From assembly GCA_050273025.1 (NCBI GenBank), contig CP158635.1, forward strand, positions 8,928,001-8,992,000: a stretch of 64,000 bases of DNA. Reading direction: 5' to 3'. The notes below the pieces were generated by a model, which was not told the origin of the DNA, searched no databases, and saw only the letters and a program-made list of their open reading frames with translations. Positions 3,485-22,219 of this stretch are shown in pieces (position 1 is the stretch's first letter; each line of letters opens with the position of its first letter). Source of the DNA: Cenococcum geophilum. Its lineage: Eukaryota. The position numbers and the translations under genes are program-made.

Positions 3485-6400
3485 ATGCCCCCCCCCTTTA
3501 AAAAGGGTTGTCCCTAATCCTTTATATACTTAAGCCTTAATAAAACCCCATAAAAAACCTTAGTAAGGAAAAAATTTAGAGGGGAAAGAGCGTCTTAATT
3601 TTGCGTATAAAGAGACGGGTGGTACATATACGCGGCGCGAAGATGTTAAGGAACTTTAACCGGCGGTCGAAGTTATCTAATTGGTTAGATTTGCCTTGCT
3701 AAGACTCCCCCACATTTAACTAAGCTAGTAGCGATTTTATATACCCGGTATAGAAAATCCTAATTGGTCTATTTAATAGGTAGAGCTAGTGGAGCTTAAT
3801 ACCATCGCCTGAATTTGGTAGACCAGAAATATTCTAAAAGCTCGCTTATATAGGTAGGTCGCTAGTACCTCGCGGGTCGGTTATAGGTTATTTATATACA
3901 GCCAGATTTATGGACAGTAAGGCTATATACCTGTTAAATCCGCCGCTAACCCTACTTTAGCCTTACGCTATACCGGCGTAGCGCCGTATATACTTTGTAG
4001 GTAGGTTATAGGTTACTTGCATATAGCTAGGTTTAGGACGGTAAGGCTATATACCTATTAAATCCGCCGCTAACCCATACTTTAGCCTTACGCGTTATCT
4101 ATATAGTATATGTATAGAATAGTATAAGTTATTAGTATAGGTTGCTACTAGCGGGTTACTAGCAGGTTATAGACCCTGGTTAAATAGACCCTAGTTATAA
4201 ATGGGCCTATTTTCTAATATATAAATAATCTGCTTAGCTGGCATAGAGTGACGGACTAGGTATAGGATATTAATAAATTAAAACTTCACCCCGTATATAC
4301 GCCGCAGTTTTTATAGCAATTATTACTTATTCTTTAATCCCTTAGGACGTCCTCTATTCCGCTTTAATATAGGTTATATTTTAATAGCGGCGCTTACTTT
4401 TTACCTGCGCTTTAGCTATAAGGCTAAGGTATTCCGCTTGCAGTACTCGTTTAGCAGTTATTAATAATTCTTAAGTTCTGTCTTGTATTTCTATTTATTA
4501 TACTTATTTAACCATCCTAGCTATTTAATAAGGTACTATGGTTATCTAGTACGATCCTAGTAGGCGACAATTGCTTCTACTTCCCAGCTGCCTTCTTTAA
4601 GCTCTTCTACTGCCGGGGGTTAAAACCTAGGGCGTGACCTATAAGGCTCTAGTAGGGAGATATAGAAGACTAGGTGGAGCCGTGCTATAGTAGGTAGAAG
4701 CTCTAGCTTATATACTTGCTACCCTACGCGCTCTAGGATCTAAAACGGTCCCATAAACTTATAGTTAAGCTTTTTATAGGGACGTTTTGTGCGGATGTTC
4801 TTAGAGGAAAGTAGGACTTGTTTACCGACGGCGAAGTGTTTAGCTAGGTGGTAATAATTGTAGTATTTTGCCTGAAGCTTTTAGGTGTATATTATTAACG
4901 CCGCCGCTACCTTATGTGTAAGGTGTAGGCGTTATAGGTACGTCTCTGCGAGTTGGATATTTGTTAACTTAGACCCCTCCCTACCTTATTAAGCGTCTTA
5001 AACGCTGTCTGGGACTCCGTCTAAGACGTTTAGTAGCTAGCTATAGGCGAGCTTAATAGGGGAACGCTTTATTATGGTATAGACCTTAGAGTTATAGGTA
5101 AATGCTACTTCTTTAAGTAGGGAGGCCCAATTAGACTGTTTCTAGTTCGTAAATATACGTAGGTATACCTTAAGCTTCTGGTTCTAACGCTCTATCTAAC
5201 TATCTATTTGCGGGTGAAATATAGTGCTAAGTTTACGTTAAACGCGGAGATAGTAGCACATAGTGCTCTAGTACTCGCTTATAAATATACTCCCCCTATT
5301 AAAGACGATATTGTTTAGAGGCCCTATTTATATAAAGACTCTAAATAAAAGTTCTGCGAGTTGTGTAGTATTAATTGTCTTACGCACTAGATAGTAGCGT
5401 ACTAGCTTTATAAAACGGTCTATAAGGACAAGGACGGAGTTATACTCTACGCTATTAGGAGTCTTAGACTCTAGGAGATCTATAATAAAGTTAAGTAAAT
5501 AATGCCGCTAGGCTTAGGTGGGGGCCTAGAGAGGCTATAGCTCACTATAGGGCTTATAGTGGCGCGATTTAGAGCATTAGTAGGTATTATAATTATCTAG
5601 GTATTTACGGAGGTTCTAGGTAAGGCCGTTCTAAGCATACTTCTACGCGATTACCTTAAAAGTATAGTTAAAACCATAGTGGCCGCCTATAGGATCGTTA
5701 TGATTCCGCTTAAGGATCTCCTATTATAATAGTATGTAATTTAGCACCTAGACCTTATTATTTTGCCTTAGGAGTCCTTAATTATTAAGGGTATAGTCCT
5801 TATTACTAGTAGGAACTTGTTCCTAGGTTAACTAATTATATATAGAGCGTGTAAAGGCGTCCCTTTTTTATACTCTATAAATAAAATTAACTAGTAACTT
5901 AGGGGGGTGTTCTATAAACGCTATTTCGGCTAAAGTAGCTACTACTACCTCTTGCCGTAGTACGAGACTTTACGCAAAGTTAGTGCTAGCGAAGTAACGT
6001 GCGATATATAGGTAACTCGCTAGGTTATTATAGGGGACTATAGCCTAGGCCAAGGGGTCTTCCCTAGGGTTAAGCGCCATTAGGTTAGTTGAAGTGGTCT
6101 TAAAGAGAATAGTAGGACGCTCTAGTCCGCCGGCGCTAAGTTCGCGAGGGTTGCTTATATACTGCACGTATGCTACTTACTAGTTTGGTATAGTAGTACT
6201 AGGGCCGCCTATAAGGCCTATAACCCGCAACTTTTACTATAATATAGGCAGTATAGCATTAAGGATTATCCTCTTACTGCTATTTTTAAAGCCTTTAGTA
6301 TAATCCAGGCGCTAGGATAGTGTGTTAGTAGAATTTATCTTACCTGGCTTATATTTAATCTTAAAATCGAACTTAGCTAGTTTCTTAGTGTATTAGGCCT

Positions 6401-9400
6401 AGCGAGCAGATAAGCTCTTAGTAGTTATAAAGTACTTAAGATTATTATAATTGCAGAGTACGCGCGTTATATACGCGGCGTGTTTAAGGTAATGGCGCCA
6501 TGTCTTAAAGTATTGCACTATAGCGAGTAGTTCTTTATTATATGTATTATACCATACTTTTAGGCTAGTAAGCTTCTAACTATAGTAGGCGATTAGATAC
6601 CAGTGGAGTTAATCTCCCTACCCCAAAGGCTATAGAAGTATACCGCTATAGATATAATTAAAAGCGTTAGTAATTACTATTAGGGGTAGATTAAGGTCAA
6701 AGTGGCGAAGTAGAGAAGCCTATATAAACGCAGCGCGTAGTTTACGGAACGCCTACTACGCGTTATCGGGCTAGGACTAGGGTTAATACTATTTAGTAAG
6801 CCCTTTTAACTTACACTTCTTCTTCTTCTCCCTATTTAATATTAGGTTATAATGTGCCTATATAAGATGTGCGTATAGGGGGTATGCGGTATCCAAGTAG
6901 TTCTAGATAAATTGCCTATAGAAGTTAGCAAAGCTAAGGAAGACCTGGATGTCCCTATAGGACTTAGGCTTAGGCCATTTTTTAATAGCTTTTACGCGGT
7001 CTAGGTCTATTATAATACCCCTAGGGGTAATAATAAAGCCTAGGAACTTAACGTTCTTAATATAAAAGATATAGTTTAATAGTTTAGCGTATAGGCCCTA
7101 AGCGCGGAGCTATTGTAGTACCTACTTAACGTGCTTAACGTACTTATCCTTGTTATTTAAGTAGATAAGAATATTATTTAGGTAAACTACGTAAATAGTA
7201 TCTACTAGGGTTCCTAGAGCTTTATAAATGTAGCTTTAGAAAGTTATAGGGGTGTTAGTAAGACTAAAGGGCATTATTAGGTACTTAAAGTGACTATAGC
7301 GTGTCTTAAATACAGTCTTCTATTTATCTCCCTTTTTAATGCGAATCCTATAGTACGTATTATAAAGATTTAGCTTTATAAATATCTTTATATAGTTAAG
7401 CCTATTAAAGAGCTTACTGACTAGTGGTAGGGGGTACCGATTTTTAATTGTGATCTTATTTAGGCGTCTATAGTCAACGTATAGCCATATTATACTATCT
7501 GCTTTTAGTATAAAGAGGATGGGCGCTCTAGTAGGAAACTTGCTGGGCCTAATCTAGCTCTTTTTAAGAGCACTGTTTATAAGATCTATAACTTTTTCTA
7601 TAAGAGGTTGTAGAGGGGCATTTATAGTGGCGTCTTGCCTTTTTTTAAGTTAATTGCATAGTCGTACTTAGAGTTCTGCGGTAGTATGCTTGCTAGCTTA
7701 TTAAAAAAGATATTAATTTCTTCCTTATATACCTCTGGTAGGCTAGGGGCTATAGAGGTTAAAGCGACTATTATATAGTAGTATACTTCTAGGAGCTAGT
7801 AAAGAGAAGGGTGCGGCTAATATATGTTTCGTAGGTATACTTATATAGAGAGTGTATATAGCTCTGCTATAGTATACTTAATAGTTTTAGGGTTTTGATT
7901 ACCTCCTCCTTATATATAGGTAATCTGCGCTAGCACCGGAGGGTCTCTGCGGGTACTCGCTGCTAGTAACGGTAGGTCCTCTACTATGTTTATAACTGGT
8001 GTCTCTATATCCGGAGGGTCTGTATAGGTACTTGCTGCTAGTAATAATAGGTCCTTTATTATATTTACGACCGGCGTAGAGAAGGAGTCTTCTGGCTATA
8101 GCGAATAGACTATTTCGCTAGCCTTAATATCTGCTAGGAGAGCGTTAATGGTGACTATTTAGAGGCGTTTAGGGTCCGAAGTACCCTAGATAAACTATCT
8201 AGAACGGAAGCTAATTAATAGATCTACTTCTGCGAGCTAATCCTATCTAAGAACCATATTATAACTATTAAATAAGCCGCCCTAAAAGGTCTGCGGGTTA
8301 ATAGTGTAAGAGGTACCCTAGGAGTCGCTAGTGGTAACTATTAGATTATAAGCATCCTAGATTATTATCTGGTTGCTATTAAGGAAATATATAATAGGTT
8401 TACGTAAACGTAGCGCGTAGCGTATAGGTAGGTTAAACCTATAGACAATATCTTAATTAATAAGGTTAATTTGGCACCTATTATTATATAAAGCATATAG
8501 GCGGACTTTACCCTAGGGCGTATCTATCGCGATATATACTATAATACATTTCTTCTTTCCCTCTGTATTAGGCCCTAGTTATAATTAAGAAAGATACGCT
8601 ACTAGGGCTTTAGGTTTTCCGAAGCCCGAGCTAACTTCTTCTTATTAGCCTACTTCTAGTGTTTCTTATAGTGGCCGCCTGCGGTCCTTTGACTCGCCTA
8701 TATAGTACTAGCGTCTAGGGGGTCCCCTAAGCTATCTGGCTTTTAGGTAGTCTCCCTAGGAGTTTACTTAGAAAAGCGTTGCCCTTTTTAAGTTCTGTTC
8801 CCTAAGCCTAACTCTATAGAGCCTGTGCTGTAACCGCGCTTTATACGCGATAATTTGCCGCTACTACTTACGCGATCTTCCGCGAGCTTTATGGTATTAA
8901 GCAATTGCTTTATATAGCGGATTTTGTTAAAGAGGTCTTTAGCGGTTCTTACCTATTAGGCGAAGTTTTAGCGGAAGAGCTTTGCTTATAGGTGGGCTAG
9001 GAGATATAAGAACTAAAAGTCTACCTATTGTTTAGGATTGATAAAAGGGGTATATAAGAAGAGGTCCTTTAAGCTACGTATACGGGCTAGGAAGACGTTA
9101 AACCTCTAGTTCTCCTTTATAATAGCCGTATAGTACATTATAGCGTTATTAAAGCGTCTTACTATAGGGTTCCTAATCTAGTCTTGGACTATAGTCTTAA
9201 ATTTGTCCTATAGTAAAGGACCCTTATCCTTAGTACCTAACCGGTAATAAACTAGTTAGGTAATTGTCTTTTCTTTTATAAGACCTTTAATAGTCTAGCG
9301 CGTGTGTTGCTTATAGTTATAGTTAGCGTTATTAACCTTAAATTGGTTCTTAACTACGGCGATCTACTAGTTAAAATGCTATTAAGTAGTACCGCTAATA

Positions 9401-9853
9401 TTGGGTAGTGACTTCTTAACTAGGGTGTTAAGATTTAATCGGCGTATACGTTTACCGCGTAACTTATGCTCTTTACTAAAGAGGTAACGGGAGGGCTTTA
9501 TCGAATTAATAATGCTCCGTAAGTTGGCTATTTTCTTAGCTAGCTTATCTAGCTCCTTTATATTAGTGGTATTAGGTAGGACGCTAGTAACCTTACTAAG
9601 CTTTTATTAAGCCTAGGTATATAAATTAAACTAGTCTCTAGCGTTTATAGATATCTAATTATTTTAAGATTTAGAAAATAGCTTAGATGCTACTAGTATG
9701 CTTTTAGTAGTTTCGTCTACACTAGATCTTAAGGTATTCTGCGGTTGCATTGCTAGCGTATTACTATTGGGTGTAGGTGTTAGTTTTCTTTTCAGAGGTA
9801 TTGTAGAAAAATTAAACTGGCTATCCTCCTAAGGGGATTAGTAAGGATTTAAA

Positions 9854-10078
9854 TATAAGGTAAGGATGTAGATAGGAAGTCTAATAATAGAATAATAGGT
9901 ATATTATATAGACAGAGACGAATCCTTAAGGGAAAAGGAGGAGTCTATATATAAGGTAGAAAGGGTTTTTTCTAGGTATATATAGAGCATATGCCTTACG
10001 GGCGAGTCACCCTTAGGTTGCCCTAGGGTCGCCCATACCTTGTGGCTATATAACTATTTACTTAGGTTTTACCTAATA
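9854..10078 (-). repeat. 5' LTR of chromovirus B
   Basis: Direct repeat of 3260-3484. Confidence 0.92.
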
Positions 10079-10081
10079 TTA

Positions 10082-11035
10082 ATAATAATAATAATAGATT
10101 TAATTTACCGTCCGACCCGGTCCCCCTAATGGGTCCACGCAGACTAATTCCTATGGGAAAAAACCTCCTTATTTATAGAGAAAAACCCCATTTTTGGGTG
10201 AACAAAAAACTTCCAGGGGAGACGTGAGAGGTAATACTTCCAGATAGCATCCGTACTACATTAACGGGAGGAAAAACACCGTCAGGTTACTGCTCTGAGA
10301 CTTTCCCCTTACGCGGGAAAGTGTCTAAAATGCCTGTCTTGCCCTGTCTGCCACTTAAACCAATTTGCTACGCTTGTATATTGCCTATATAAAGTCGTAT
10401 GCCTGTCCCTAGCTCCTTTTCTAAGTCTCCTATAAATATCTCCTAATAATGACGCTTGCGCTCCGCCCGGGCCTATATACTAAGGTCTCTTATCCATTCC
10501 TCTATTAAAAGGTTTCTATAACAGGATGTATATAACTTGGTATCGCTTAAGCCCTAGGGCCTAAACCCAGGCCCTTATACCTATTTGTGAGGTATAGAAG
10601 GACGCTCTAGTATTTAATAGGGGGGACCAGTCCCTATAACTAGATACCCAGATTACCAGGTAATGTTAAAATAGGGGGCCTCTGCTACGCTTAGGGCGCG
10701 GATTGTTCGCGTATATGTGGGTACTGCGCGGTGTATATAGTATTTATAGGAGGGAGGGGGTACGCCGGAGGGATAATTGCTTGTCGATTCGAATGACCGA
10801 ACGTGTATAATAGACGTGGTAGCTATGTTTAAACTTTTTACTGGGGCTCACCCCCCAGTGAAAAAATTTTCACACCACCACCACCACGTCGCTGCGCAGG
10901 CGCTGCGCAGCCGTATACACGTCTCTGCGTTTGCTCTGGTAGTCTATTGACACGATCCAAATGGAACATCAATAGTAGCTGCCAGGTTCCCGGGCTCCAC
11001 CGCGTAAAAATGCAGAGGCCGATTTCGTCAAGCCC
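10082..11035 (-). mobile_element. Non-autonomous non-LTR (LINE-derived/SINE-like) retroelement, ~950 bp
   Basis: 11-bp TSD ACCTAATATTA (10071-10081 / 11036-11046). (ATT)n 3' tail on the minus strand at 10082-10095. No TIRs or LTRs. Pro/Gln-rich RIP-stopped ORF remnant from ~10787. Confidence 0.7.
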
Positions 11036-11344
11036 ACCTAATATTATTATATTATTAACTTCTTATTTACCTATATACCTAGCCTATTAATAAGTTTACC
11101 GTAGTTCCTACTATAAGGCTTTATTATAAAACTATTCCTTATATAAGAAGCCTAGCTACTATATTACTAGCTATATAGCTTAAAGCTCTATCTTATATAA
11201 GCTAAAGTTAAGGATTTATTTAAATCTAGCCGTTAATTAACGTATGTGATGGGGTTATAAAGGTAACCCTAGTTATAACCGATTTGAAATTAAAATTCAC
11301 TAAAATGCTAATTTAGTGGTAAATAATTAGTAAAAGCTATTATA

Positions 11345-11703
11345 AATTATCGCATCATCCTTCCTGCAAATCCTTTGGTAAGTAGCTTCTTCTACTACCT
11401 TCTTACTAGCCTCCTAAAGTTGCATAATAAAAGCTATAGCTATAGCTATAGCGGCGGCTACAGACTCTTCCGCCTACTTTTAGAGCGGTTAATTGTTTCT
11501 ATACCTTAATATACGCTAGGTAGACTCTAGGATACATTATATAGGCCGCAAAATACACACCTATGCTTGCGTATACGCTAGCTTAAAACTTTCTAGACTT
11601 TTATATAAGCTTCGGCGCTTTTATAAAGATTTTTTATTCGCTAGGCTATTAAAGCTGCTTATAGACGATCTTCTATATCTAGAGCACTCGGCTAGTAAGG
11701 CAT
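11345..11703 (-). pseudogene. Internally deleted pogo-like transposase remnant (psq-type HTH N-terminus)
   Basis: ATG at 11703 gives MPY*PSALDIEDRL*AALIA*RIKNLYKSAEAYIKV*KVLS*RIRKH, which resembles the Fot1/pogo N-terminal HTH. No DDE core remains. Confidence 0.5.
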
Positions 11704-11729
11704 AGCTTTAAGTTCTATATAAGGAAGTA

Positions 11730-12017
11730 CAGCCTATACAACCTCTAGTGTCCCCCCCCCCTTATATACGCGCGCAACACATAGCAATTTCGCTTCATAC
11801 GCACTAGAGAATTTTAAGTTTAACTTTTATAATTAAGCTTAAAAATTTAAAGGCTTTGCCTTTCTTATAGGTGTATAGCTCTTCTAGCAAGCGCACGGCT
11901 CTTTTGGCAAGCGCACTGTATCTACGCTGGATGGTGCACTTAACTAGTAATTACCGAAATTGCTATATATTGCGCGCGCACATAGGGGGGGGGGGACACT
12001 GGAGGTCGTACAGGCTG
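11730..12017. mobile_element. Tc1/mariner-type MITE (288 bp)
   Basis: ~60-bp TIRs (CAGCCT.TAC.ACCTC.AGTGTCCCCCCCC...). TA on both sides (11728-29, 12018-19). Confidence 0.85.
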
Positions 12018-12387
12018 TAAGGAGAAAAGTCGATGTGTTGGTGTTCACGGCTCGGCTGAGCGCCCGATCAGTCGCTGAGCCGCACGTGACACATACAACC
12101 CCCGTCGACATTCGCGGATGTCCACGGCCGAGCCTGCAGCCAAGCCGTGGACATCTTCGAATGTCTTTACCCCTACTGATCGAGCCGCTGATGCACGCGT
12201 ACTATTGGCCTATTGGCCCAGCCGTGCGCCCATATATTTACCCTATGCGGTAAGGTCACTTATCCGCTCGCTAAACGGCCAGTAAATATACTTTCTCTAC
12301 CTCTCCTCCCCGGTCTTTGTCTGTGTATATATAAAAAATAGGAACCCCCCTAGGGCACAGCTTCTCTAGCAGCGTCCTATCTTAAAA

Positions 12388-14632
12388 ATAGCGTTAATTA
12401 GTCGCGTAGAGATTAACGTCACGAATAATGCCAAACTACGCGCTAACGCGCAGAGTATCCTCGCCCTTACGCGTGCCGAGAGGCCTAAAAACATATCTTT
12501 AAATTATAAGCCGAAGTAGAAGGAGTTTAAGGTAGGTAGCTAGATACTTTATAGAGTAGTATACTTATAGCTAACGCGCGTCTTCTTAGGCCTTTTGTAA
12601 GAAGAAGCAGTACTATAATACCAATACCATTATAGAGGAGAAGCTACTTCTTTTCCTCGTTAAGAAGGTTATAGGCTGGCCACTAAAAGCAAAAAGCCGT
12701 AAGGCCAGTGACGATATACCCTAAGACGAGACGCGGCTCTCCTGGCGCTTAGTTTACGGCTATATTACAGCCCTAACGGACCTTTACCAGGCGCAGAAGG
12801 CTATAGGGATAAATAGCCACTAGTCCCCGCGGGAGGATAATATTAGGAAATACCTTAAGATTCTATAACAGAGGGACGCGCAATAGGAAAAGCAGTAGTT
12901 TGCGGATAAGGGTAGGGATACGCTGCTTAACAGATATACGAAGGACGAGTTTAAGAACGTTTACCGCTAGCTATAAGCCCGCGGAGACTCCTCGCCAGAA
13001 TACTACCTTCGCACGCTCATAGATATCCTACTAGGCCACTACATGCTTACCCACGGCGGCGATAGGCGCTCCGCTAAGATCTTAAACTTATTTACCTTTA
13101 AGTTTAAAGGGGAAGGCCCTACCCACTATATGCCCCTAATATTTACTATACGCGTTAGTAAGTAGAACTAATACAGCCGCCTTAAGATTATTAGGGCTCT
13201 ATATAATAAGAAGCCGCTTATCTACATACTTAATAGGCTAGCTTTTTACCTCCTATATCGCTAGGACCTTAACAATAAGCCGTTCCTAGACTTTAGTAAG
13301 CGGTTAGCATAGTACAATATCCGCCTAATTAAGAGCAGCGCTAGGGACTATAAGGCGGCCTTCTTATATAACTTGCAGTAAAAGTAGGTTGCTAAGGCGT
13401 TCTAGTACGTCGGTGTCTTCTTGCAAAAGAAAACCCATATTAGATAAAGCGCTGGCGCTAAAACGGCAGAGCTAAAAGGGGTTAGTAAGGACTAGATTAA
13501 ACACACTAGCAGGTAGAACTAGGAGTAGATAGTTAGCTACTACTTAAACTTACTACCGCGGGAGTTTATACAAATAATGGCTGGCCATACGCCGCAGATA
13601 GGCTGCTTTAAAATTCGTAGGGCAAGCGTCGCCCCCCCTAACGTACTACTATCGACGATCTAGCCAGATCTAGATGTCTAGAAAGGTTAGTTCAGCCCTT
13701 AGGTCGGCTAAATTAACGACTTCGCAGCTATAAGCGCCACGAACCTCTTATTTTACCTCTAGGAGGTCATCCTATAGGACTTAATAGTCCTCCGCAAGGT
13801 GTTCCTAAGCAGCCCTATATAGAACCACCCTATCTTCTAGTATAAGGCCTATCTACCCTTTACATAGAAGGTCGAAACCTACCTATAGCAGAAGGAAGAA
13901 GGCCCTAGCTAGCTATTAATACTCTACTAAGCCGTACCAGCTATTATAGACTGCCTAAAGACTATAAACGCCTAGAACAACTAGAGAGCATATAAGAATA
14001 ACTAAAAAGCACGCGAGCTATAGGCGTTGTTTAACCGTATAGCCGAGTCCTAGTGGGCGCAGTCTTTACAGCTTTAATTACTTACATCTAGTAGCCTTAC
14101 CTTTCAGCTTAAGGTCCCTTCGGCACGGCTACTAACGGCATATCTACTAACGGCACCAGCACCTCTATCTATCGCGGGATTAAGCCAGTATGCGTCAGCC
14201 TAGGCGAGCGCTGTAGCTTCCCCTTTACCAGCGCTGCCGTAGCTACAGCCGCAGCCGTAGCCGTAGCAAGGGCCCGAGTCTAAGCTCAAGCTTAAGCTCC
14301 CGCCTAAGCAGCCGCCCGTATATTATATATGCCGTGTAGTAAAGTCCGTACGGGCCCTTTAGCGCGAGTAGACTAAGGGGCTTAGAGATAATCCTTCCGT
14401 AGTAGCGCTAGATTCTAAATAGGGCAATAGGTAGTAGGCCGGCCGGCAGAACGAGCTCTAATAGTACTCCCTACGGCTTAAGGTTATTAAGGAGATTAAG
14501 TGGGTTGCGTAGGCCTAGAGGGTTAGCGAGGAAGCGGCTATATAGCAGGTTAATCTACAGTAGGAGTAGATACAGTACTCGCTAGATTAGCTTTATAAAC
14601 GGCTTTAAATAGGTAAAAAAGCTATTAAATAG
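12388..14632 (+). pseudogene. Crypton (CryptonF-type) tyrosine recombinase with Ndc10-like domain and C-terminal GCR1_C DNA-binding domain, RIP-inactivated
   Basis: RPKNISLNYKPK*KEFK, then GT-AG intron 12532-12589, then ITEEKLLLFL-like, LLGHYMLTHGGDRRSA, KKTHIR*SAGAKTAELKGV..SR*N*E*IVSYYLNLLPREF (de-RIP H-x-x-R..W..Y catalytic motifs, ~13425-13560). VKSVRAL*RE*TKGLRDNPSVVALDSK*GNR* (GCR1_C) at ~14335-14435. The start ATG reads ATA. Confidence 0.88.
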
Positions 14633-15073
14633 TATATATCTCTAAAATACTAAGGAGTTTTCTATTAAAACCTTTATCTATAGCCCCTTAGGGGCTTATT
14701 TTAGTGTGGTATAAGTTTAGTAGAATACTTATATAATAGCAGCGCCCGACTTAAATTATAAATATCTTTATTAACCCATGGCTAATTTTTACCATTCTAG
14801 TGCGAGTAGAGAGCTCTTAGCTAGCTCTACGTATAGCGCTCGACAGGTATTAAGAGCGTAGTATTACTGGCGATTGTAGATCAACCGTAGATATAGGGTA
14901 ATGTTCAAAGCGGCAGTATATTTAGCTAGCCTAAATAAAAAGGCGGTAATATATATCAGTTATAACTATAGTTACCTTTATAACCCCATTATATACATTA
15001 GGGGTATAATTCACTTATAATATATCTTCTAGTTAATTATACCCTATTTCTTCTCCTAAAAGAGATAAGGACC

Positions 15074-18000
15074 TGTAACCGACTACCGACACTGCGTTAA
15101 GATACAAGATTACCGCTTAAAAGGCTCCAAGATGGCGTTAACGCCACCCAATATAGTGGTTGCAGATCAATATTAGTAGCAGATTACCGTTCCTATTTCA
15201 GCTATCTATTACCCTATCACTTCTACCTTCTTTATATATATATAGAGCCTCTAGAGCTACATTCACAATTAAGTCGTTTATTTAATTCTTCGCACTGTAA
15301 AGCTTACAGTTATAAGCCTGGATCGCACTACCTGCTAACCAATTAATCTACTACCTTATTTAAGAAGTCACTACTTTTACTACCTTTATAGTGTCTTAAG
15401 CTTCTTTACCTATTAAACAAACGGACGATTAACCCCAGTTAACGTATATACCCGACCAATAAACGAACTAATGAATTAAATTAAAAGTTCGAAATGTTAA
15501 AATAAGGTTTTTGCTAAGACGCTAATTGGACCCTGCCTAACCTATTAAATCCTAAAAATAATAACTATAAGCAAATTAAAAGTTAACCTAATCCTTAACC
15601 AGCCTTCTAATTAAACACAGTGGTTCTTTATTATCCAAAATACTGCTAAAACTAACAAGGTATGGGAGCACATTGACCTATCTAAAAAAGGCAAGCGTCC
15701 AAAGCTAGCATAACTAAGTCATCCTATACTAAGGGATATACTACCCACAACTACATCGATAGCAAAGCTAGACCCAAGTCAGCTCACTGCTTATAACTAG
15801 CTCTATACTAAATATAAAGACGATCTTCGCATATATAAGAAGTAAAAACGGGCTATAAACGATATCAGTAACTATATCGTTCACACTACATTAGTAGCCT
15901 ACCTTCTACTTATTAACGACCTTAATACGGTACACGAACGGCTTTAAGCACTCAAGACTACACTAGCCCCTACTACCTTAGGTTAAAAACAAGACGTCCT
16001 AAATCAGTACACGGCTTTAAAAGTCTATAATAAAAAGCAGAGTATTGATAAATGGTTAAATAACTGGCGGAATATCTATAAGCTTGTGGAGTAATTAAAG
16101 CTACCAAATATACAAGGATTTAGGCTACACTATAACTTTATTTAAGCTATTAAATCTATCTCTTCTAGTTTTATAGGAGCACTAGAAGTAGACCTTATTA
16201 AAAAAGAATAGAAGGATAAAGAGGCCCTATCTATCATCGATCTAATTAAAGAATTTAAGGAGCACTACCGCATGTAGCAAGCAGTATCCTCGGCTACCCC
16301 TACTAATAACTCTGCTTTTGCAACCCTAGGCAATTCCAATTTAGATTCTAATAACAATTCTAATTTAGATTTAAAATAGAATAAGGAATGCATATACGGC
16401 TTTAAACATTAATTTAGTAGCTACTACTATATTATTAAGTAGAAGCGCCCTTAAGGATAGAAACCAAACCCAAATATCTAAAAAAAAGTAGAAAAAGCAA
16501 TCTCATCTACGCCTTAGATTAAACGCATTATTAACCTCATCTTAAAAAAAAATAGGAAGTAAAGAAGAATATAGAATCTACAATTAATTTTAATTCCAAA
16601 ACCCTACCTTTTAAAACCCCGACTAGCCATGCTGCTATATTTAGTACTGGTTAAACTCTATTTAAACTCTAGAATACCTGAATACTTAACCCTGGTATAG
16701 ATACCCACGTCTATAACAACTAAAAAGACTTTACCTTTTCCTACCCAGCTATAGAAGACGACTACCTAATTACTAATAGAAATTATGAAAAGATACAGGC
16801 TTATAGAATAGTAACGATTACTATTAATACACCTACTAGGAGCTTAAAAATAAAGCTATCCTATATAGCATTGGTACCTACCATATTTACAAATATTGTA
16901 GCACTATTAAGGGCTATAGATAATAATATCCATTTCGACTTAGGACAAAACTTGCTATACTGTTTAATAACTAGCAAAACAGTATGCTATATAAAACAAC
17001 TAGGGGGCCACTAGGCACTAATGCATAGAGAGCCTACCCTAGATTTGACAACTTAATCGACCTTCTTAATAAGAAGATATTAACCAAGCAGAATGGCCCG
17101 CAAATTAATTAGAGCTACAGCTACAAAATGGCACAAAATACTTGGCCATACAGGACCTAACACTATTAAACAGCTTCCTAAGCACATCAATAGCGCAGAG
17201 CTCGAAGAGCTAATTAATGAACGAGTACCGCTCAAAATCAAATGCGAAGTCTACTTAATATCAAAGCATATACAGCAGATCTCTCGAAGACGAGAATACA
17301 AATTTCTAGCCACTCAACCATTCGAGCGGGTAGCATTTAATATCATTACCCTTAGAGAACCAGGGTATAACGGCGATAGATACGTAATACACTTCTATTG
17401 CACGTATTCTAAATTTAATTTTGTATTTACCGCTAAGAATAAAAATAAAGCTACCGTCCTACCTATCATCCGTAAGACCCACCGTTTAATCAAAATACGA
17501 TTCCACTAAGATGTGATCTTCTTCTGGAGCGATAATAAATAAGCTTTTAGATAAATAGGAGACACCTTGTATATATAGTGCGCAGACAAAGGCATTACTT
17601 TTAAATGCTGAGCCCCGTATACAGAAGAACAAAATAGCGGAGCTAAACAATCTAAATAAACCCTTATGGATTAATCAAGGGCTATACAGCTAGAAGCATC
17701 CTTACCCCCGTCTTTAGGACCAGAGACGTTCCTTACCGCAGGATACGCACTCAATTAAACCCCAAATAAGTAACTAGGATGGAAAACTCCGTACAAAATC
17801 GCCTACGGCAAGCCGCCATCACTTACCCATATGTATATATACGGCTGCAAAACCTATACACTAGATAAACAAATCAAAAGGGGAGATAAACTAGCTCCTC
17901 GTGCATTAATTGGACACCTAGTTGGCTACAATTTAACCAATATCTATTAAATCTGGATTCCGAGTCTCCGCAAGGTCATTTAAACTAAAGACGTCACATT

Positions 18001-20583
18001 TGACGAGACCTCGTTCTATAACCCCAAGGGTTAAGACATTAACTACCTGCTAAGGGAAGTATTAGAAGACACCCTCTAGACAATCAGTCTACTAAAACCT
18101 CTACATGAGGACAAATCTAAGGACAAATCAATCCTATACACAGTCAATCTGGACCCTTAAAGATCTACCTTAGGTATAGATTAAACAACTATATCTAAAT
18201 TAAATAATTTAGCAAAGCTTCGTATAAAGGATACTAAGCAGTTACTAATACCTAGCAGAACGGTATCTCCAGATTTACTAGAATCGAACACCTTACTATA
18301 AGGACTTCAAGACAACATCTTAGATATAATTGAAACAATTTTAACCTAGCTAAGCTCTTTAGAACCATCCAATAGAGCAATTAATATAGCTCTACGAGCT
18401 AACGAAGTCTTGGCCAAACCTTCTACCAACCTTATTCTATTAGAAGGATCAAAACAAATTCAACGTTAAGCGCATGCAGTAGCACTAACCAATCTATCTA
18501 CCCTATTTGGTTACTACGCTGGATTTGCCACAGGATTAGTAAAGGACATCGACTGAACTAGATCCTTATCTCTATATCGGGACAACCTTCCTCCTAAACC
18601 AAAGAATCTTAAAGATCTGAGAAAGCATCCTTTAACTATTGGCTTTTAAAAGGCTATAGAAAAAAAATACAACGACCTAAAACGCCGAGGGACATTTAAG
18701 ACTGTACTAAAAGCAGAAGTAGGTAACGAGTAGATCCTTTTACTAAAATGGGTCTTTAAATATAAGCTTAATAGTGACGGCTACCTACAGAAGCTCAAAG
18801 CTAGACTATACGTCCGCGGAGACCTGTAGATTATAGAGGAAGAGACCTATGCAGCAACCCTAGCTGCTCAAATATTCCGTGCTCTCATGGCTATAGCAGC
18901 CGCATTCAACCTGGAAATTCAACAGTATAACGCTGTAAACGTATTTACAAATGCCAAGCTTAGTAAACCAATCTACTGCTACTGCCCAGAAGGTTTTAAT
19001 TAAAACGGATATGTCCTAAAGCTACTTATAGCGCTATATGGATTAAAAATCTCACCACTACTTTAGTATAAAGAGCTTACTAATACACTGGCTAAATTCG
19101 GATTAGAACTAGTACTAGGCACTAACTACCTATTTACTAATAGACGACTTATTATCTTCTTCTATATAGACAATATAGCCGTCCTATTTGCTAAGAAGGA
19201 CCTTTTAAGACTTAAAGAATTTAAAGCAAAATTGCTGCATTAATACGAAATCCGTGCACTAGGAGACCTACAGTGGTTCCTAGGTATTTAAATCAGTCGA
19301 GATTAAGTAAGTAGGAAGCTCTGGCTTTGCCAAGACTCCTATATTGAAAAGATAGCCAATTAATTCAATATTTAACCACTAGAAAGATTTCCTAAGTTAC
19401 TACTTCCTGCCGAAGAACTAATTCCGTCCGACTAGCAGACGAACCCTTAAAGAACCCTAGCCTACTAGTAACAAGTAGGGTCACTTATACACCTTACCGT
19501 ATTTGGAAGACCTAATATTACTAAGACGTATTCTAAGCTAGCCGAATTTTTTACTAATCCAAATTAATAACACCTTGACGCAGTAAACTAAGCTATTGCT
19601 TACTGTCTTAGAATAAAATCTACAGCTATTAAATACTCTGGCGAAGTATTTAGAGCCTATATCTACTTCAGAAACCCTAAAGGAGAAGACGTTACCTTTT
19701 ACGGAGTATTTAACGCAGTATTTGCGGACTATATAGAAACTAGACGAAGCTCTTAAGGATATCTATTTATCCTATTTAGAGGACTAATTAATTGGAAAGC
19801 AACCCTACAGCAATTTGTTACTCGCTCGACTACTAAAGTAAAGCTTCTCTCCCTATCTACTGCTGCCGTTAAAATTATCTGGTGGCAATAATTCTTTGAA
19901 GTAATTGGCTTCAATTTAAAACGCGAATTTACTATACTCTGCGACAATATGCAGACCGTATGACTCCTAAGACAGAATATACTAAAGCTTGACACTAAGC
20001 TTCGACATATCGACGTCTACTAGCACTAGCTAAGACAGGAAGTTTAAGACAAAAAGATTAACGTCTAATGGGTCCCTATAGACAAGATGCCTACCGACGG
20101 CCTTATTAAGATCTTACCCCGTTAAAAGCACGAGGCATAGATAAAGCAATTAAATTTAGTGGATATTCAACATTAGATTAATTAATTCCATTTATAATAT
20201 CCGCAATATTTATAATATTCGCAATATGCTATTCTTACCCTATCCGTTTACTACTCTTAAATTATATCTAAATTTCCTATTTTGGTATAGCTTCTGCCCT
20301 TATTTTATGTTCTACAGCTTTAACTACACCGTTAAATCTGGGGGGGTGTGTAACCGACTACCAACACTATATTAAGACACAAGATCACCGCTTAGAAGGC
20401 TCCGAGATGGCGTTAACGCCACCCAATATAGTGGTTGCAGATCAATATTGGTGGCAGATTACCGTTCCCATTTCAGCTATCTATTACCCCATCACTTCTA
20501 CCTTCTTCGTATATATATAGAGCCTCTAGAGCTACATTCACAATCAAGTCGTTTATTCAATTCTTCGCACTGTAAAGCTTACA
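15074..20583 (+). mobile_element. Full-length RIP-inactivated Ty1/Copia retrotransposon
   Basis: 235-bp LTRs at 15074-15308 and 20349-20583 (TG..CA). 5-bp TSD GGACC. GTTATAAGCC after the 5' LTR and a G-run PPT before the 3' LTR. Domain order is protease (*ILNPGIDTH), integrase (WHKILGH..C), RT (FYIDNI), RNase H. Confidence 0.95.
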
Positions 20584-22219
20584 GGACCTTTTATAAAGCT
20601 ATTAAAACACCCTTAAAATATCTAGCCTTATTACTTATAAATCTTATCTACTATATATATCCCCTTAACCTCCTCTCCTAAATATCTTATAACCTATTAT
20701 TTTATATATCTTCCGCCTATTTACCTAGGTCTTATCTATTTATAGTATTAAATACCACTACTTTTTAGTCTAGTTAACATGCTCTAGGGCCTATTAAAGG
20801 CGTTTCTCCTTATTAGCTTATTAAAGGGGAGGTTTAGCACGTATAATATATTATTTTAAGCTAGCTTTCCAAAGGGCGTTTTAAATAGCATATTTAGAGA
20901 CTTATTAGTACAATAATAGGCTATTTACTAGCTAAAGATAAGATATAAGCCGACTAGAACGTAAGGAATAGATATAGAGGGTAAGGTTTTAAACTTATTT
21001 ATTTATAAGAGACAAAGGATAGCCAAAATACTTCTTAGGAGTAACACGTTCTATAAAGACAGCATATTAAGCTTAACGCTGTATAATATTTAAAAGCTAT
21101 ATAATCTTTTTATAGGTATAGCCAGCAAGGCGTAAAGTTTAAACTTAAAGGCGTTAATTACGCGTAAGCCGCTTATGCTAAGGTATTAAAGGCGCTATAA
21201 TAAATTATAGAGGATAAAGGTATAAAGACGCGTGTACGCGACTGCGAGGTATAATAAATAGTTAATAAGAGTGCTGAAAGATATTATAGGACTAATTGGT
21301 GGAAAATCCTAGCAAGAATCCCGGCTAATATTTTACGCTAATTTTTATACTAACGAAACTTATGCCTGATACCGTAGTAAGTTTTGGTGTGGCTTAATTT
21401 AGAAGTTTAGACTTAGTATAAATACAACTAATACATACTAATAAATATATAAAGGGGAGGGGTTAAAAAGGAAATTAAAAAAGTAATAAGTATATAGGTT
21501 AGTGCCTACATATGAATACACGTGACCACATGAATGTCACGTGTAGTCATGTGATGATAAGATAAAAGAACTTATGCTACAGCCAACTTTGCACACGTGC
21601 CATATATCGACACTGGAGCTCCGCAGCGCTTCTGGCGTCAAATCGTTATTTTGGTGGATGGAGTGGATTTGCCTTCAGATCCGCTCCACTCCGATCCAAA
21701 TAGATCTCTGCTCCCCGCTACATAGCATCTTGGCAGCGATAGATATAGCGACGCTGGCTCTCGACCACACTGTATCCAAAGGAGAGCTACTGGGGTTCTT
21801 ACGCTCTCGTTGAGTCTTGGGATGACAAATCAAAAGAGTGTGGCGTCTATGGACTTGCCGGGCTTGCTGAGGATATAAGTGAGACTGAAGGGAAGTACAT
21901 GTCTTTCAGATGCTGCGGTTAAGTGCAGGCAACTAATATCATTTTCCATCTCTGCGGACTGTGACTGTCTGCAGGTAATCAGCTTAGGTGGACTAAGGAA
22001 TTCAAGGAGTGCCTTGAATCATTCGAGGGGGCGCGTACAAGAGCATTGTTAGAATCCTGAATCACTGGAGACGTCGAAGTCATCAGGCACATATGCGTAA
22101 CCCCGCCCAATTTTCCTCATGCCCGACGACACATCAACTCTAAAAGCACAAACTTCATATAAGACCGGTTGCACGGCAAGAGCCGCTTAACTACTTGGAC
22201 TACCTTCGATAAGTACACA

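What the first reader, a model, noticed from the sequence alone, without database searches (positions are those of the whole stretch)
11240..14998. Hybrid transposon: Crypton tyrosine recombinase carried inside pogo-type TIRs, moved as one unit
Seen: ACGT-starting ~44-bp TIRs and a TA duplication whose removal restores the host Tc1 frame exactly, showing the 3.76-kb unit arrived by DDE-style insertion. Inside are a full-length intron-containing YR/Ndc10-like + GCR1_C gene (+) and a divergent, internally deleted pogo-like HTH remnant (-). Established: Cryptons typically lack TIRs and TA TSDs; a mariner/pogo-Crypton composite (MarCry-1_FO, Fusarium oxysporum) has been described. Inference: this is a rarely reported two-enzyme element in which the DDE gene was lost but the recombinase kept. 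The YR might act as a resolvase, a regulator, or cargo mobilised in trans.
Basis: partly seen in the sequence, partly recalled or inferred. Interest (0 to 1): 0.8.

Follow-up and report, generated by a model that had tools for sequence, protein, structure and literature searches.

The report
Dead pogo transposon carrying a Crypton
This is a mutation-riddled copy of a rare two-part fungal jumping gene, in which a Crypton (a recombinase-type transposon) sits inside the ends of a pogo-type cut-and-paste transposon that has lost its own enzyme gene.

Summary
Window 11240-14998 is bounded by about 46-nt inverted ends starting ACGT and by TA on each side. Contigs from two public runs skip exactly the element plus one TA.

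Inside is a CryptonF-type gene (NDC10_II plus GCR1_C) with its intron and no frameshift. It is dead from RIP: the start codon is ATA and there are 57 premature stops.

Window 11703-11587 (-) encodes the first 39 codons of a pogo transposase.

Related metagenome loci show a longer form: a full-length DDE_1 pogo gene head to head with three tandem Crypton units, ending in the same inverted end plus TA. The composite lies at three sites with different flanks, so it is not a one-off nesting.

The same Crypton mostly lies outside these ends. Only 2 of 19 left array ends and 2 of 18 right array ends adjoin pogo arms. It integrates by its own 8-bp repeat, TTGGTGTT, and forms tandem arrays.

Best reading: a Crypton integrated 44 nt upstream of a pogo transposase start, and the composite then spread by pogo transposition. 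The window copy is a DDE-deleted derivative. It is a new variant of the MarCry kind. Movement as one unit is inferred, not proven.

The parts
11238..11239 (.). TA target-site duplication, left copy
   Evidence: the empty-site joint skips the element plus one TA
11240..11285 (+). left terminal inverted repeat (ACGTATGTGATGGGGTTATAAAGGTAAC...)
11240..11729 (.). left arm, an internally deleted pogo element, colinear with L048 750-1242 at 88%
11587..11703 (-). remnant of the pogo transposase gene: first 39 codons, with 3 in-frame stops
   Evidence: tblastn to the L038 pogo ORF, 59% identity, E 1.8e-7; the only pogo match in the window
11730..12017 (.). nested 288-nt MITE with 65-nt inverted ends; TA duplication at 11728-11729 and 12018-12019; absent from L048
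12020..12037 (.). rest of the pogo 5' leader, lying between the transposase start and the Crypton
12038..14905 (+). one Crypton unit, from TTGGTGTT (12038-12045) to TGTT (14902-14905); it lacks the roughly 95-nt linker end seen at array ends in L058 and L061
12107..12165 (.). palindrome holding an inverted pair of the CCGTGGACAT motif that clusters around the crossover site
12388..12531 (+). Crypton exon 1; start codon mutated to ATA; 1 premature stop
12532..12589 (+). intron of 58 nt (GTAGGT ... CTAAC ... TAG)
   Evidence: the exon join EFK|AFC matches P0021 and P0025
12590..14632 (+). Crypton exon 2 (NDC10_II plus GCR1_C); 56 premature stops; native stop at 14630-14632
14906..14998 (.). right arm with the right terminal inverted repeat (about 14953-14998)
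14999..15000 (.). TA target-site duplication, right copy

Best explanation
The element is a RIP-inactivated, non-autonomous member of a pogo-Crypton composite transposon family, of the same kind as MarCry-1_FO.

**Origin (shown by anatomy).** A CryptonF element integrated by its own tyrosine-recombinase route into the 5' leader of a pogo/Fot1-type transposon. The site is 44 nt upstream of the transposase start codon, at a TTGGTGTT that matches the Crypton's crossover core. This left that 8-mer on both sides. The two genes lie head to head.

**Spread (inferred).** The composite was then moved by the pogo DDE transposase acting on the roughly 46-nt inverted ends, duplicating TA. This gave at least three insertions.

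**Window lineage (shown).** An internal deletion removed the transposase gene except for its first 39 codons. Such copies could then move only if a full-length copy supplied the enzyme in trans (inferred).

**Arrays.** Inside the composite and elsewhere, Cryptons stand as tandem arrays (shown). These probably arose when Crypton circles recombined with resident copies (inferred).

**Later events in the window copy (shown).**
- It lost about 95 nt at the Crypton's right end.
- It received a 288-nt MITE.
- RIP destroyed it.
For: - **Ends, TA and empty site:**
- **Crypton identity and layout:**
- **Crypton boundaries.** They are set by 68 of 69 related loci. The 8-mer lies at both junctions in L048, L058 and L061.
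- **Pogo nature of the ends.** Solo element L061 10029-12579 has TA|ACGTAGGTGATAGGGTTAT ends and DDE_1 at 1.8e-17.
- **Full-length composite.**
  - The L038 pogo ORF runs 9257 to 7398 (-), with DDE_1 at 2.1e-14, directly beside its Crypton.
  - L038 and L058 overlap by 100 nt at 100% identity.
  - The two halves of the Crypton unit are split by one LTR element, with LTRs of 423 nt at 91% and TSD GGCGG.
  - This gives pogo gene, three units, right end and TA in one locus.
- **Window remnant.** It equals the first 39 codons of that ORF.
- **Three sites.** The flanks next to the TA differ at each end. The L048 and L061 contig ends overlap by 48 nt exactly.
- **Scarcity of the ends elsewhere.** Arms and ends occur in 4 of 69 loci (L038, L048, L058, L061), always beside a Crypton, and nowhere else in about 254 kb of non-Crypton DNA in the 38 loci with close units. 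That makes repeated chance hits into them unlikely.
- **Unoccupied site in relatives.** Pogo relatives carry a similar unoccupied sequence, ATGTTTTGATATT, at the same place.
- **Precedent.** MarCry-1_FO has TIRs and TA TSD with the DDE held responsible, and is active today.
Against: - No copy shows both ends together with an intact transposase. The left end of the L038 copy was not found.
- Site-specific integration would give the same junction in independent events, so identical junctions do not prove common descent.
- Transversions carry no signal within clade A, so common descent of composite-borne units could not be tested.
- The same Crypton is mostly outside pogo ends: 17 of 19 left array ends and 16 of 18 right array ends.
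- In L002 a Crypton lies 98 nt outside a pogo end.
- The loci come from metagenomes, not from the window's genome. Linking L048 to L061 rests on a 48-nt overlap within a repeat.
Confidence: 0.72

Rival explanations
1. A recurrent target rather than a vehicle. The pogo family, including its deleted form, carries a preferred Crypton attachment site in its 5' leader. Cryptons entered several separate pogo copies independently. The composite as such never transposed.
For: - Crypton integration is site-specific at a short motif. Here the 8-mer lies at both junctions, and CryptonF-1_cRei targets CAYCG.
- Pogo relatives keep a similar sequence at that position.
- Composite copies hold clade A units in one case and clade B units in another.
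- A joint from 11710 to 14899 in runs X1, X6 and X14 is compatible with ends that lack a Crypton.
Against: - Other integration sites share only a few bases with the 8-mer, so suitable sites should be very common.
- Yet 3 of roughly 17 clade A and B arrays lie at this one position. Meanwhile no solo copy of these arms occurs in about 254 kb of neighbouring DNA.
- The window and L048 share both the same internal pogo deletion and the Crypton.
Confidence: 0.2
2. The composite copies were spread by segmental duplication or ectopic recombination of a larger block, not by transposition.
For: The region is a dense nest of repeats, where such rearrangements are common.
Against: - Similarity between copies stops exactly at the inverted ends, next to TA, and the flanks differ from there on.
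- The empty-site contigs lack exactly the element plus one TA.
Confidence: 0.03
3. A one-off nested insertion: an unrelated Crypton happened to land in one small TIR element at this locus only.
For: Within the 64-kb window there is a single copy, and the Crypton is common elsewhere without these ends.
Against: The same junctions recur in L048, L038, L058 and L061 with other flanks, including a form with a full-length transposase.
Confidence: 0.02

Closest known systems
MarCry-1_FO of Fusarium oxysporum (Kojima and Jurka 2011, PMC3212892; passages read)
   Same: - A CryptonF gene (YR plus GCR1_C) lies inside a Tc1/mariner-superfamily DNA transposon.
- It has TIRs and a TA duplication.
- It has several copies.
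- The DDE enzyme is held responsible for movement.
   Different: - The ends are about 46 nt here and 16 nt there.
- The window copy has lost the DDE gene. MarCry keeps it and is active.
- The Crypton part can be a tandem array of three units.
- The Crypton's own 8-bp junction repeats are still visible.
- The DDE here is the DDE_1 (pogo) type, whereas the paper says "Mariner-type".
- No sequence comparison with MarCry could be made.
CryptonF elements (Crypton-Cn1; CryptonF-1_cRei, PMC9977147, passages read)
   Same: - The domain pair is the same.
- It has short terminal direct repeats rather than TIRs.
- It integrates at a short motif matching one terminus.
- It occupies many independent sites.
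   Different: - Some copies here ride inside pogo ends.
- Units stand in tandem arrays with a 92-93-nt linker.
- The repeat is 8 nt (TTGGTGTT), against 4-6 nt or CACCG in the literature.
Fot1/pogo family DNA transposons of fungi (family traits recalled; DDE_1 tested here)
   Same: TA duplication, inverted ends of about 45 nt and a DDE_1 transposase in the full-length relatives.
   Different: It carries a second mobile element in its 5' leader. HTH_Tnp_Tc5 reaches only E 0.046 in L061.
Non-autonomous deletion derivatives moved in trans, such as Hormin derived from Hornet (10.1101/2025.02.18.635021, passages read)
   Same: An internal deletion removes the transposase while the ends are kept.
   Different: The derivative here is not miniature. 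It keeps a 2.9-kb Crypton as a passenger.

Membership tests
CryptonF | Protein with a tyrosine-recombinase core (Pfam NDC10_II) followed by GCR1_C | tested here: met
   NDC10_II 1.8e-51 and GCR1_C 5.1e-6. All 109 homologues found carry NDC10_II and most also GCR1_C.
CryptonF | Catalytic residues of the recombinase kept (assignment of R-H-R-W/H-Y to boxes is recalled, not tested) | tested here: not met
   Alignment A1 shows LTRGGDRR changed to LTHGGDRR, THIGRS to THIRXS and RWNQEQ to RXNXEX. H283 and Y318 are kept. The losses are RIP-type changes in a dead copy, not a family difference.
CryptonF | Short terminal direct repeats and no TIRs of its own | tested here: met
   TTGGTGTT or its RIP forms stand at both ends of arrays in and outside pogo arms.
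MarCry-type DDE-Crypton composite | Crypton gene enclosed by TIRs with a TA duplication | tested here: met
MarCry-type DDE-Crypton composite | DDE transposase gene within the same element | tested here: not met
   In the window copy only 39 codons remain and Pfam finds nothing. The feature is met in the related copy L038+L058, which has DDE_1 at 2.1e-14.
MarCry-type DDE-Crypton composite | Several copies with the same structure at different TA sites | tested here: met
   Three sites with different flanks. The copies are 82-89% alike because of RIP, not above 97% as in MarCry.
MarCry-type DDE-Crypton composite | Sequence relatedness to MarCry-1_FO itself | not testable with these tools
   No MarCry sequence was available to any tool. 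No Fusarium name appears among the named hits.
pogo/Fot1 clade of Tc1/mariner | TA duplication, TIRs and a DDE_1 transposase | tested here: met
   TA and TIRs. DDE_1 in relatives that share the ends.
pogo/Fot1 clade of Tc1/mariner | CENP-B/Tc5-type HTH at the N-terminus | tested here: inconclusive
   HTH_Tnp_Tc5 reaches E 0.046 and 14.1 bits, below the cut-off, in L061 only. There is no hit in L038 or the window.

The most novel reading that the evidence does not exclude
The pogo-Crypton composite may be a lasting two-enzyme lineage rather than an accident. The pogo part would give the Crypton access to any TA site. The Crypton part would be an expandable cassette: three units appear in each of the two longer copies. 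Its recombinase could add or remove units, or release circles, from every new landing place. A DDE-less derivative would persist as a carrier. Tandem Crypton arrays would then be a regular product of Crypton biology that, as far as my three searches went, has not been described.
Probability: 0.3. Interest if true: 0.7.

Novelty: new variant of a known kind. Interest (0 to 1): 0.58.

Why it matters
[quoted passage not shown] This would be a second family.
- **How the fusion arose.** The recombinase-type junction repeats are still readable in the 5' leader of the transposase gene.
- **Stages preserved.** Three are seen: a full-length two-gene form, a form without the DDE gene, and the free Crypton.
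- **Arrays.** This Crypton builds tandem arrays, which bears on the open question of how Cryptons gain copies although they excise.
- **Limits.** All copies seen are RIP-mutated. The matter is therefore evolutionary and mechanistic, not a live element in this genome.

Tried and rejected
- **Whole-genome search.** No genome is held for this window, and the records behind the loci are not held.
- **Earlier notes of this scan.** Nothing was found by place, sequence or words.
- **Pfam on the non-Crypton parts and near flanks.** There were no hits. The pogo remnant was found only with a relative's protein.
- **One Pfam call.** It failed because its output was too large. I repeated it on shorter stretches.
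- **TIR pattern scans.** Genome contigs and viral contigs gave 0 hits, as expected for a fungal element.
- **Left end of the L038 composite.** It was not found by alignment or by a transition-tolerant scan; scores were at shuffle level.
- **Transversion-only tree and private-variant count.**
  - The tree used 52 units of at least 2300 nt and at least 78% identity; shorter or more distant ones were dropped.
  - There is no signal within clade A, so unit transposition could not be told from repeated hits this way.
  - One search's zero counts were an artefact of gap handling and were redone.
- **A 19-nt purine/pyrimidine pattern.** It was far too loose, with 263 control hits, and was discarded.
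- **Inverted ends of the host Tc1-like element.** None was found.
- **Empty sites for the L048/L061 and L058 insertions among the loci.** None was found.
- **Summed depth.**
  - Depth is several-fold lower over the arms than over the Crypton body.
  - The tool warns it is not a copy number, so I draw no count from it.
- **The 11710 to 14899 joint.** It has only 25-26 nt on one side, so it is only a hint that ends without a Crypton exist.
Full report
**1. Setting**

The first 21 kb of the window are AT-rich and made of nested repeats. Copies elsewhere differ from them almost only by transitions, the mark of RIP (repeat-induced point mutation) in fungi. In one search, thousands of contigs from four runs lie on 9500-16500: 14251, 12646, 10747 and 1173. 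No whole genome is held. Comparative evidence therefore comes from public runs and from 69 metagenome loci found with an alignment of Crypton proteins.

**2. The observation**

- *Ends.* The inverted ends are 11238-11283 and 14955-15000, 46 nt with the TA, 87% complementary. They differ only by RIP-type changes.
- *Empty site.* One contig each in runs X1 and X5 joins 11235 to 14997, skipping 3761 nt. That is the element plus one TA, with 4 nt of placement ambiguity. Other copies of the host repeat therefore lack the insert exactly.
- *Host.* It is a Tc1-like element on the minus strand.
  - HTH_Tnp_Tc3_2 scores E 3.1e-5, below the Pfam cut-off, at about 20773-20958.
  - After removing a nested Copia (15074-20583, LTRs 93% alike, TSD GGACC) and the element plus TA, its frame continues across the site.

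**3. The Crypton gene**

- Exon 1 is 12388-12531, the intron is 12532-12589 and exon 2 is 12590-14632. The gene reads in one frame without indels.
- Pfam gives NDC10_II at 1.8e-51 and GCR1_C at 5.1e-6.
- 109 homologues were found, the best 66% identical. They confirm the exon join and the native stop.
- The copy is dead.
  - The start codon is ATA, whereas most other copies carry G at 12390.
  - There are 57 premature TAA or TAG stops. They lie where homologues have Q, W or R.
  - Conserved boxes are hit.

**4. Crypton boundaries and behaviour**

- 68 of 69 loci match the window's Crypton at DNA level. The matches begin at 12038 and end at 14901 or 14902.
- By my reading, units stand head to tail in 19 of those 68 loci. 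Arrays hold up to four units, separated by a 92-93-nt linker.
- Units within an array differ by 5-11%, with 0 or 1 transversion. The arrays are therefore real, and their units were identical before RIP.
- Arrays begin with TTGGTGTT and end with the linker followed by TTGATGTT or a similar form. The flanks are many and different. This fits the published model of integration at a short motif shared with one terminus.
- Three exact copies of CCGTGGACAT and one near-exact inverted copy (ATGTCTACGG) cluster within about 220 nt of the crossover. I read these as recombinase-binding sites, which is an inference.

**5. What the inverted ends belong to**

A sensitive search with the arms found a 2551-nt element in L061 (10029-12579) with related ends. 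The first 22 or so nucleotides are shared, as is a subterminal TACCGCCTTCCTATTTAGG, and TA lies on both sides. It encodes a transposase with DDE_1 at 1.8e-17. The ends are therefore pogo-type.

In L038 a full-length pogo ORF (9257 to 7398, minus strand) lies directly left of the Crypton.
- DDE_1 scores 2.1e-14.
- It has 18 stops in the first 560 codons.
- It is 51% identical to the L061 protein.

Its first 39 codons match window 11703-11587 (-) at 59% identity, E 1.8e-7. This is the only pogo match in the window. The window's left arm, colinear with L048 over 490 nt, is therefore a pogo element with an internal deletion.

The Crypton lies 44 nt upstream of the transposase start, head to head with it. 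Two solo pogo relatives have an unoccupied, similar sequence at that position.

**6. Recurrence**

The end motif occurs in 3 of 69 loci, with 0 control hits. Each occurrence lies next to a Crypton array, and each has TA and its own flank.

- *L038 and L058.*
  - The two loci overlap by 100 nt at 100% identity.
  - One LTR element, with TSD GGCGG, splits the first Crypton unit.
  - Together they form one locus: pogo gene, three units, right end, TA.
- *L048 and L061.*
  - The two loci overlap by 48 nt exactly.
  - They are probably one copy: deleted pogo, three units, right end.

With the window this makes three sites. Against that, only 2 of 19 intact left array ends and 2 of 18 intact right array ends adjoin pogo arms. 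In L002 a Crypton lies 98 nt outside a pogo end.

**7. Unit transposition or repeated hits**

- Junctions cannot decide, because integration is site-specific.
- Transversions give no signal within clade A.
- Three points favour unit transposition.
  - Other integration sites need only a few matching bases, so suitable sites should be very common.
  - No solo copy of the arms occurs in about 254 kb of neighbouring DNA.
  - The window and L048 share both the pogo deletion and the Crypton.
- I put unit transposition at about 0.7 and repeated targeting at about 0.2.

**8. Later events in the window copy**

- A 288-nt MITE (11730-12017) with a TA duplication is absent from L048.
- About 95 nt is missing at the Crypton's right end: GGGTAA is followed directly by TGTT.
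- RIP has mutated the whole element.

**9. Literature**

- MarCry-1_FO is a Crypton fused with a Mariner-type transposon, with 16-bp TIRs and a TA TSD (PMC3212892, passages). It is active, with 46 copies in one strain (preprint 10.1101/2025.02.18.635021, passages).
- A 2026 paper says a DDE gene in a Crypton has been reported only in MarCry (PMC13465315, passage).
- RepeatMasker-type mentions of MarCry exist for other fungi (PMC4511438 and PMC9410150, passages).
- I found no account of Crypton tandem arrays or of a DDE-less TIR-borne Crypton. The searches were:
  - "marcry" (14 papers hold the term, 13 listed);
  - "cryptonf" (10 papers);
  - "crypton" with "tandem array" and "tyrosine recombinase" (5 papers, judged by listing only).
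- Goodwin et al. 2003 was not read.

**10. Verdict**

It is a new variant of the MarCry kind, and this copy is dead.

Noticed in passing
window 11730-12017: A 288-nt MITE with 65-nt inverted ends (CAGCCTATACAACC...C-run) and a TA duplication is nested 19 nt from the Crypton's left end. It is absent at the same place in L048.
   Followed up: partly
window 15074-20583: A Copia-type LTR retrotransposon lies on the + strand. Its LTRs (15074-15309 and 20349-20583) are 93% alike and it has a 5-nt duplication, GGACC. It splits the same Tc1-like host element. Integrase and RT motifs were seen only in a printed translation, with no Pfam result.
   Followed up: partly
window about 3500-9000 (-): Gypsy-like reverse transcriptase and integrase motifs are visible in the translation printed by the failed. 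They were not scored against Pfam.
   Followed up: no
window 10904-11128: A very abundant repeat ends at 11128, where 59 contigs of run X1 diverge. Window 11042-11126 recurs at 2858-2774. The same piece lies near the start of the LTRs of the element that splits the Crypton in L038/L058.
   Followed up: partly
L022, L044, L047 and L063 right array ends: Four Crypton arrays end against the same repeat, CACGACCAGCTTC(C)AC followed by a C-run. It resembles the ends of the nested MITE in the window. This looks like a second recurrent Crypton-MITE neighbourhood.
   Followed up: no
L063 153-2997 (+) and 3664-6508 (-): Two Crypton units lie in inverted orientation, 666 nt apart, tail to tail.
   Followed up: no
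L066, L040, L033, L005, L031 and L052: A more distant Crypton subfamily, about 72% identical to the window unit, also forms tandem arrays but with a gap of about 357 nt between aligned units.
   Followed up: no
L047 5292-5520; window 12107-12165 and 14885-14894: The 10-mer CCGTGGACAT occurs three times directly and once nearly exactly in inverted form (ATGTCTACGG), within about 220 nt of the Crypton crossover site. These are possible recombinase-binding sites.
   Followed up: partly
L058 7551-7597 and 8044-8090: Immediately beside the composite's right TA lies another small element with 47-nt inverted ends (96% alike).
   Followed up: no
L002 979-2326: A third pogo relative, 43% identical in protein, ends with its own inverted end plus TA only 98 nt from a Crypton's left end.
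   Followed up: partly
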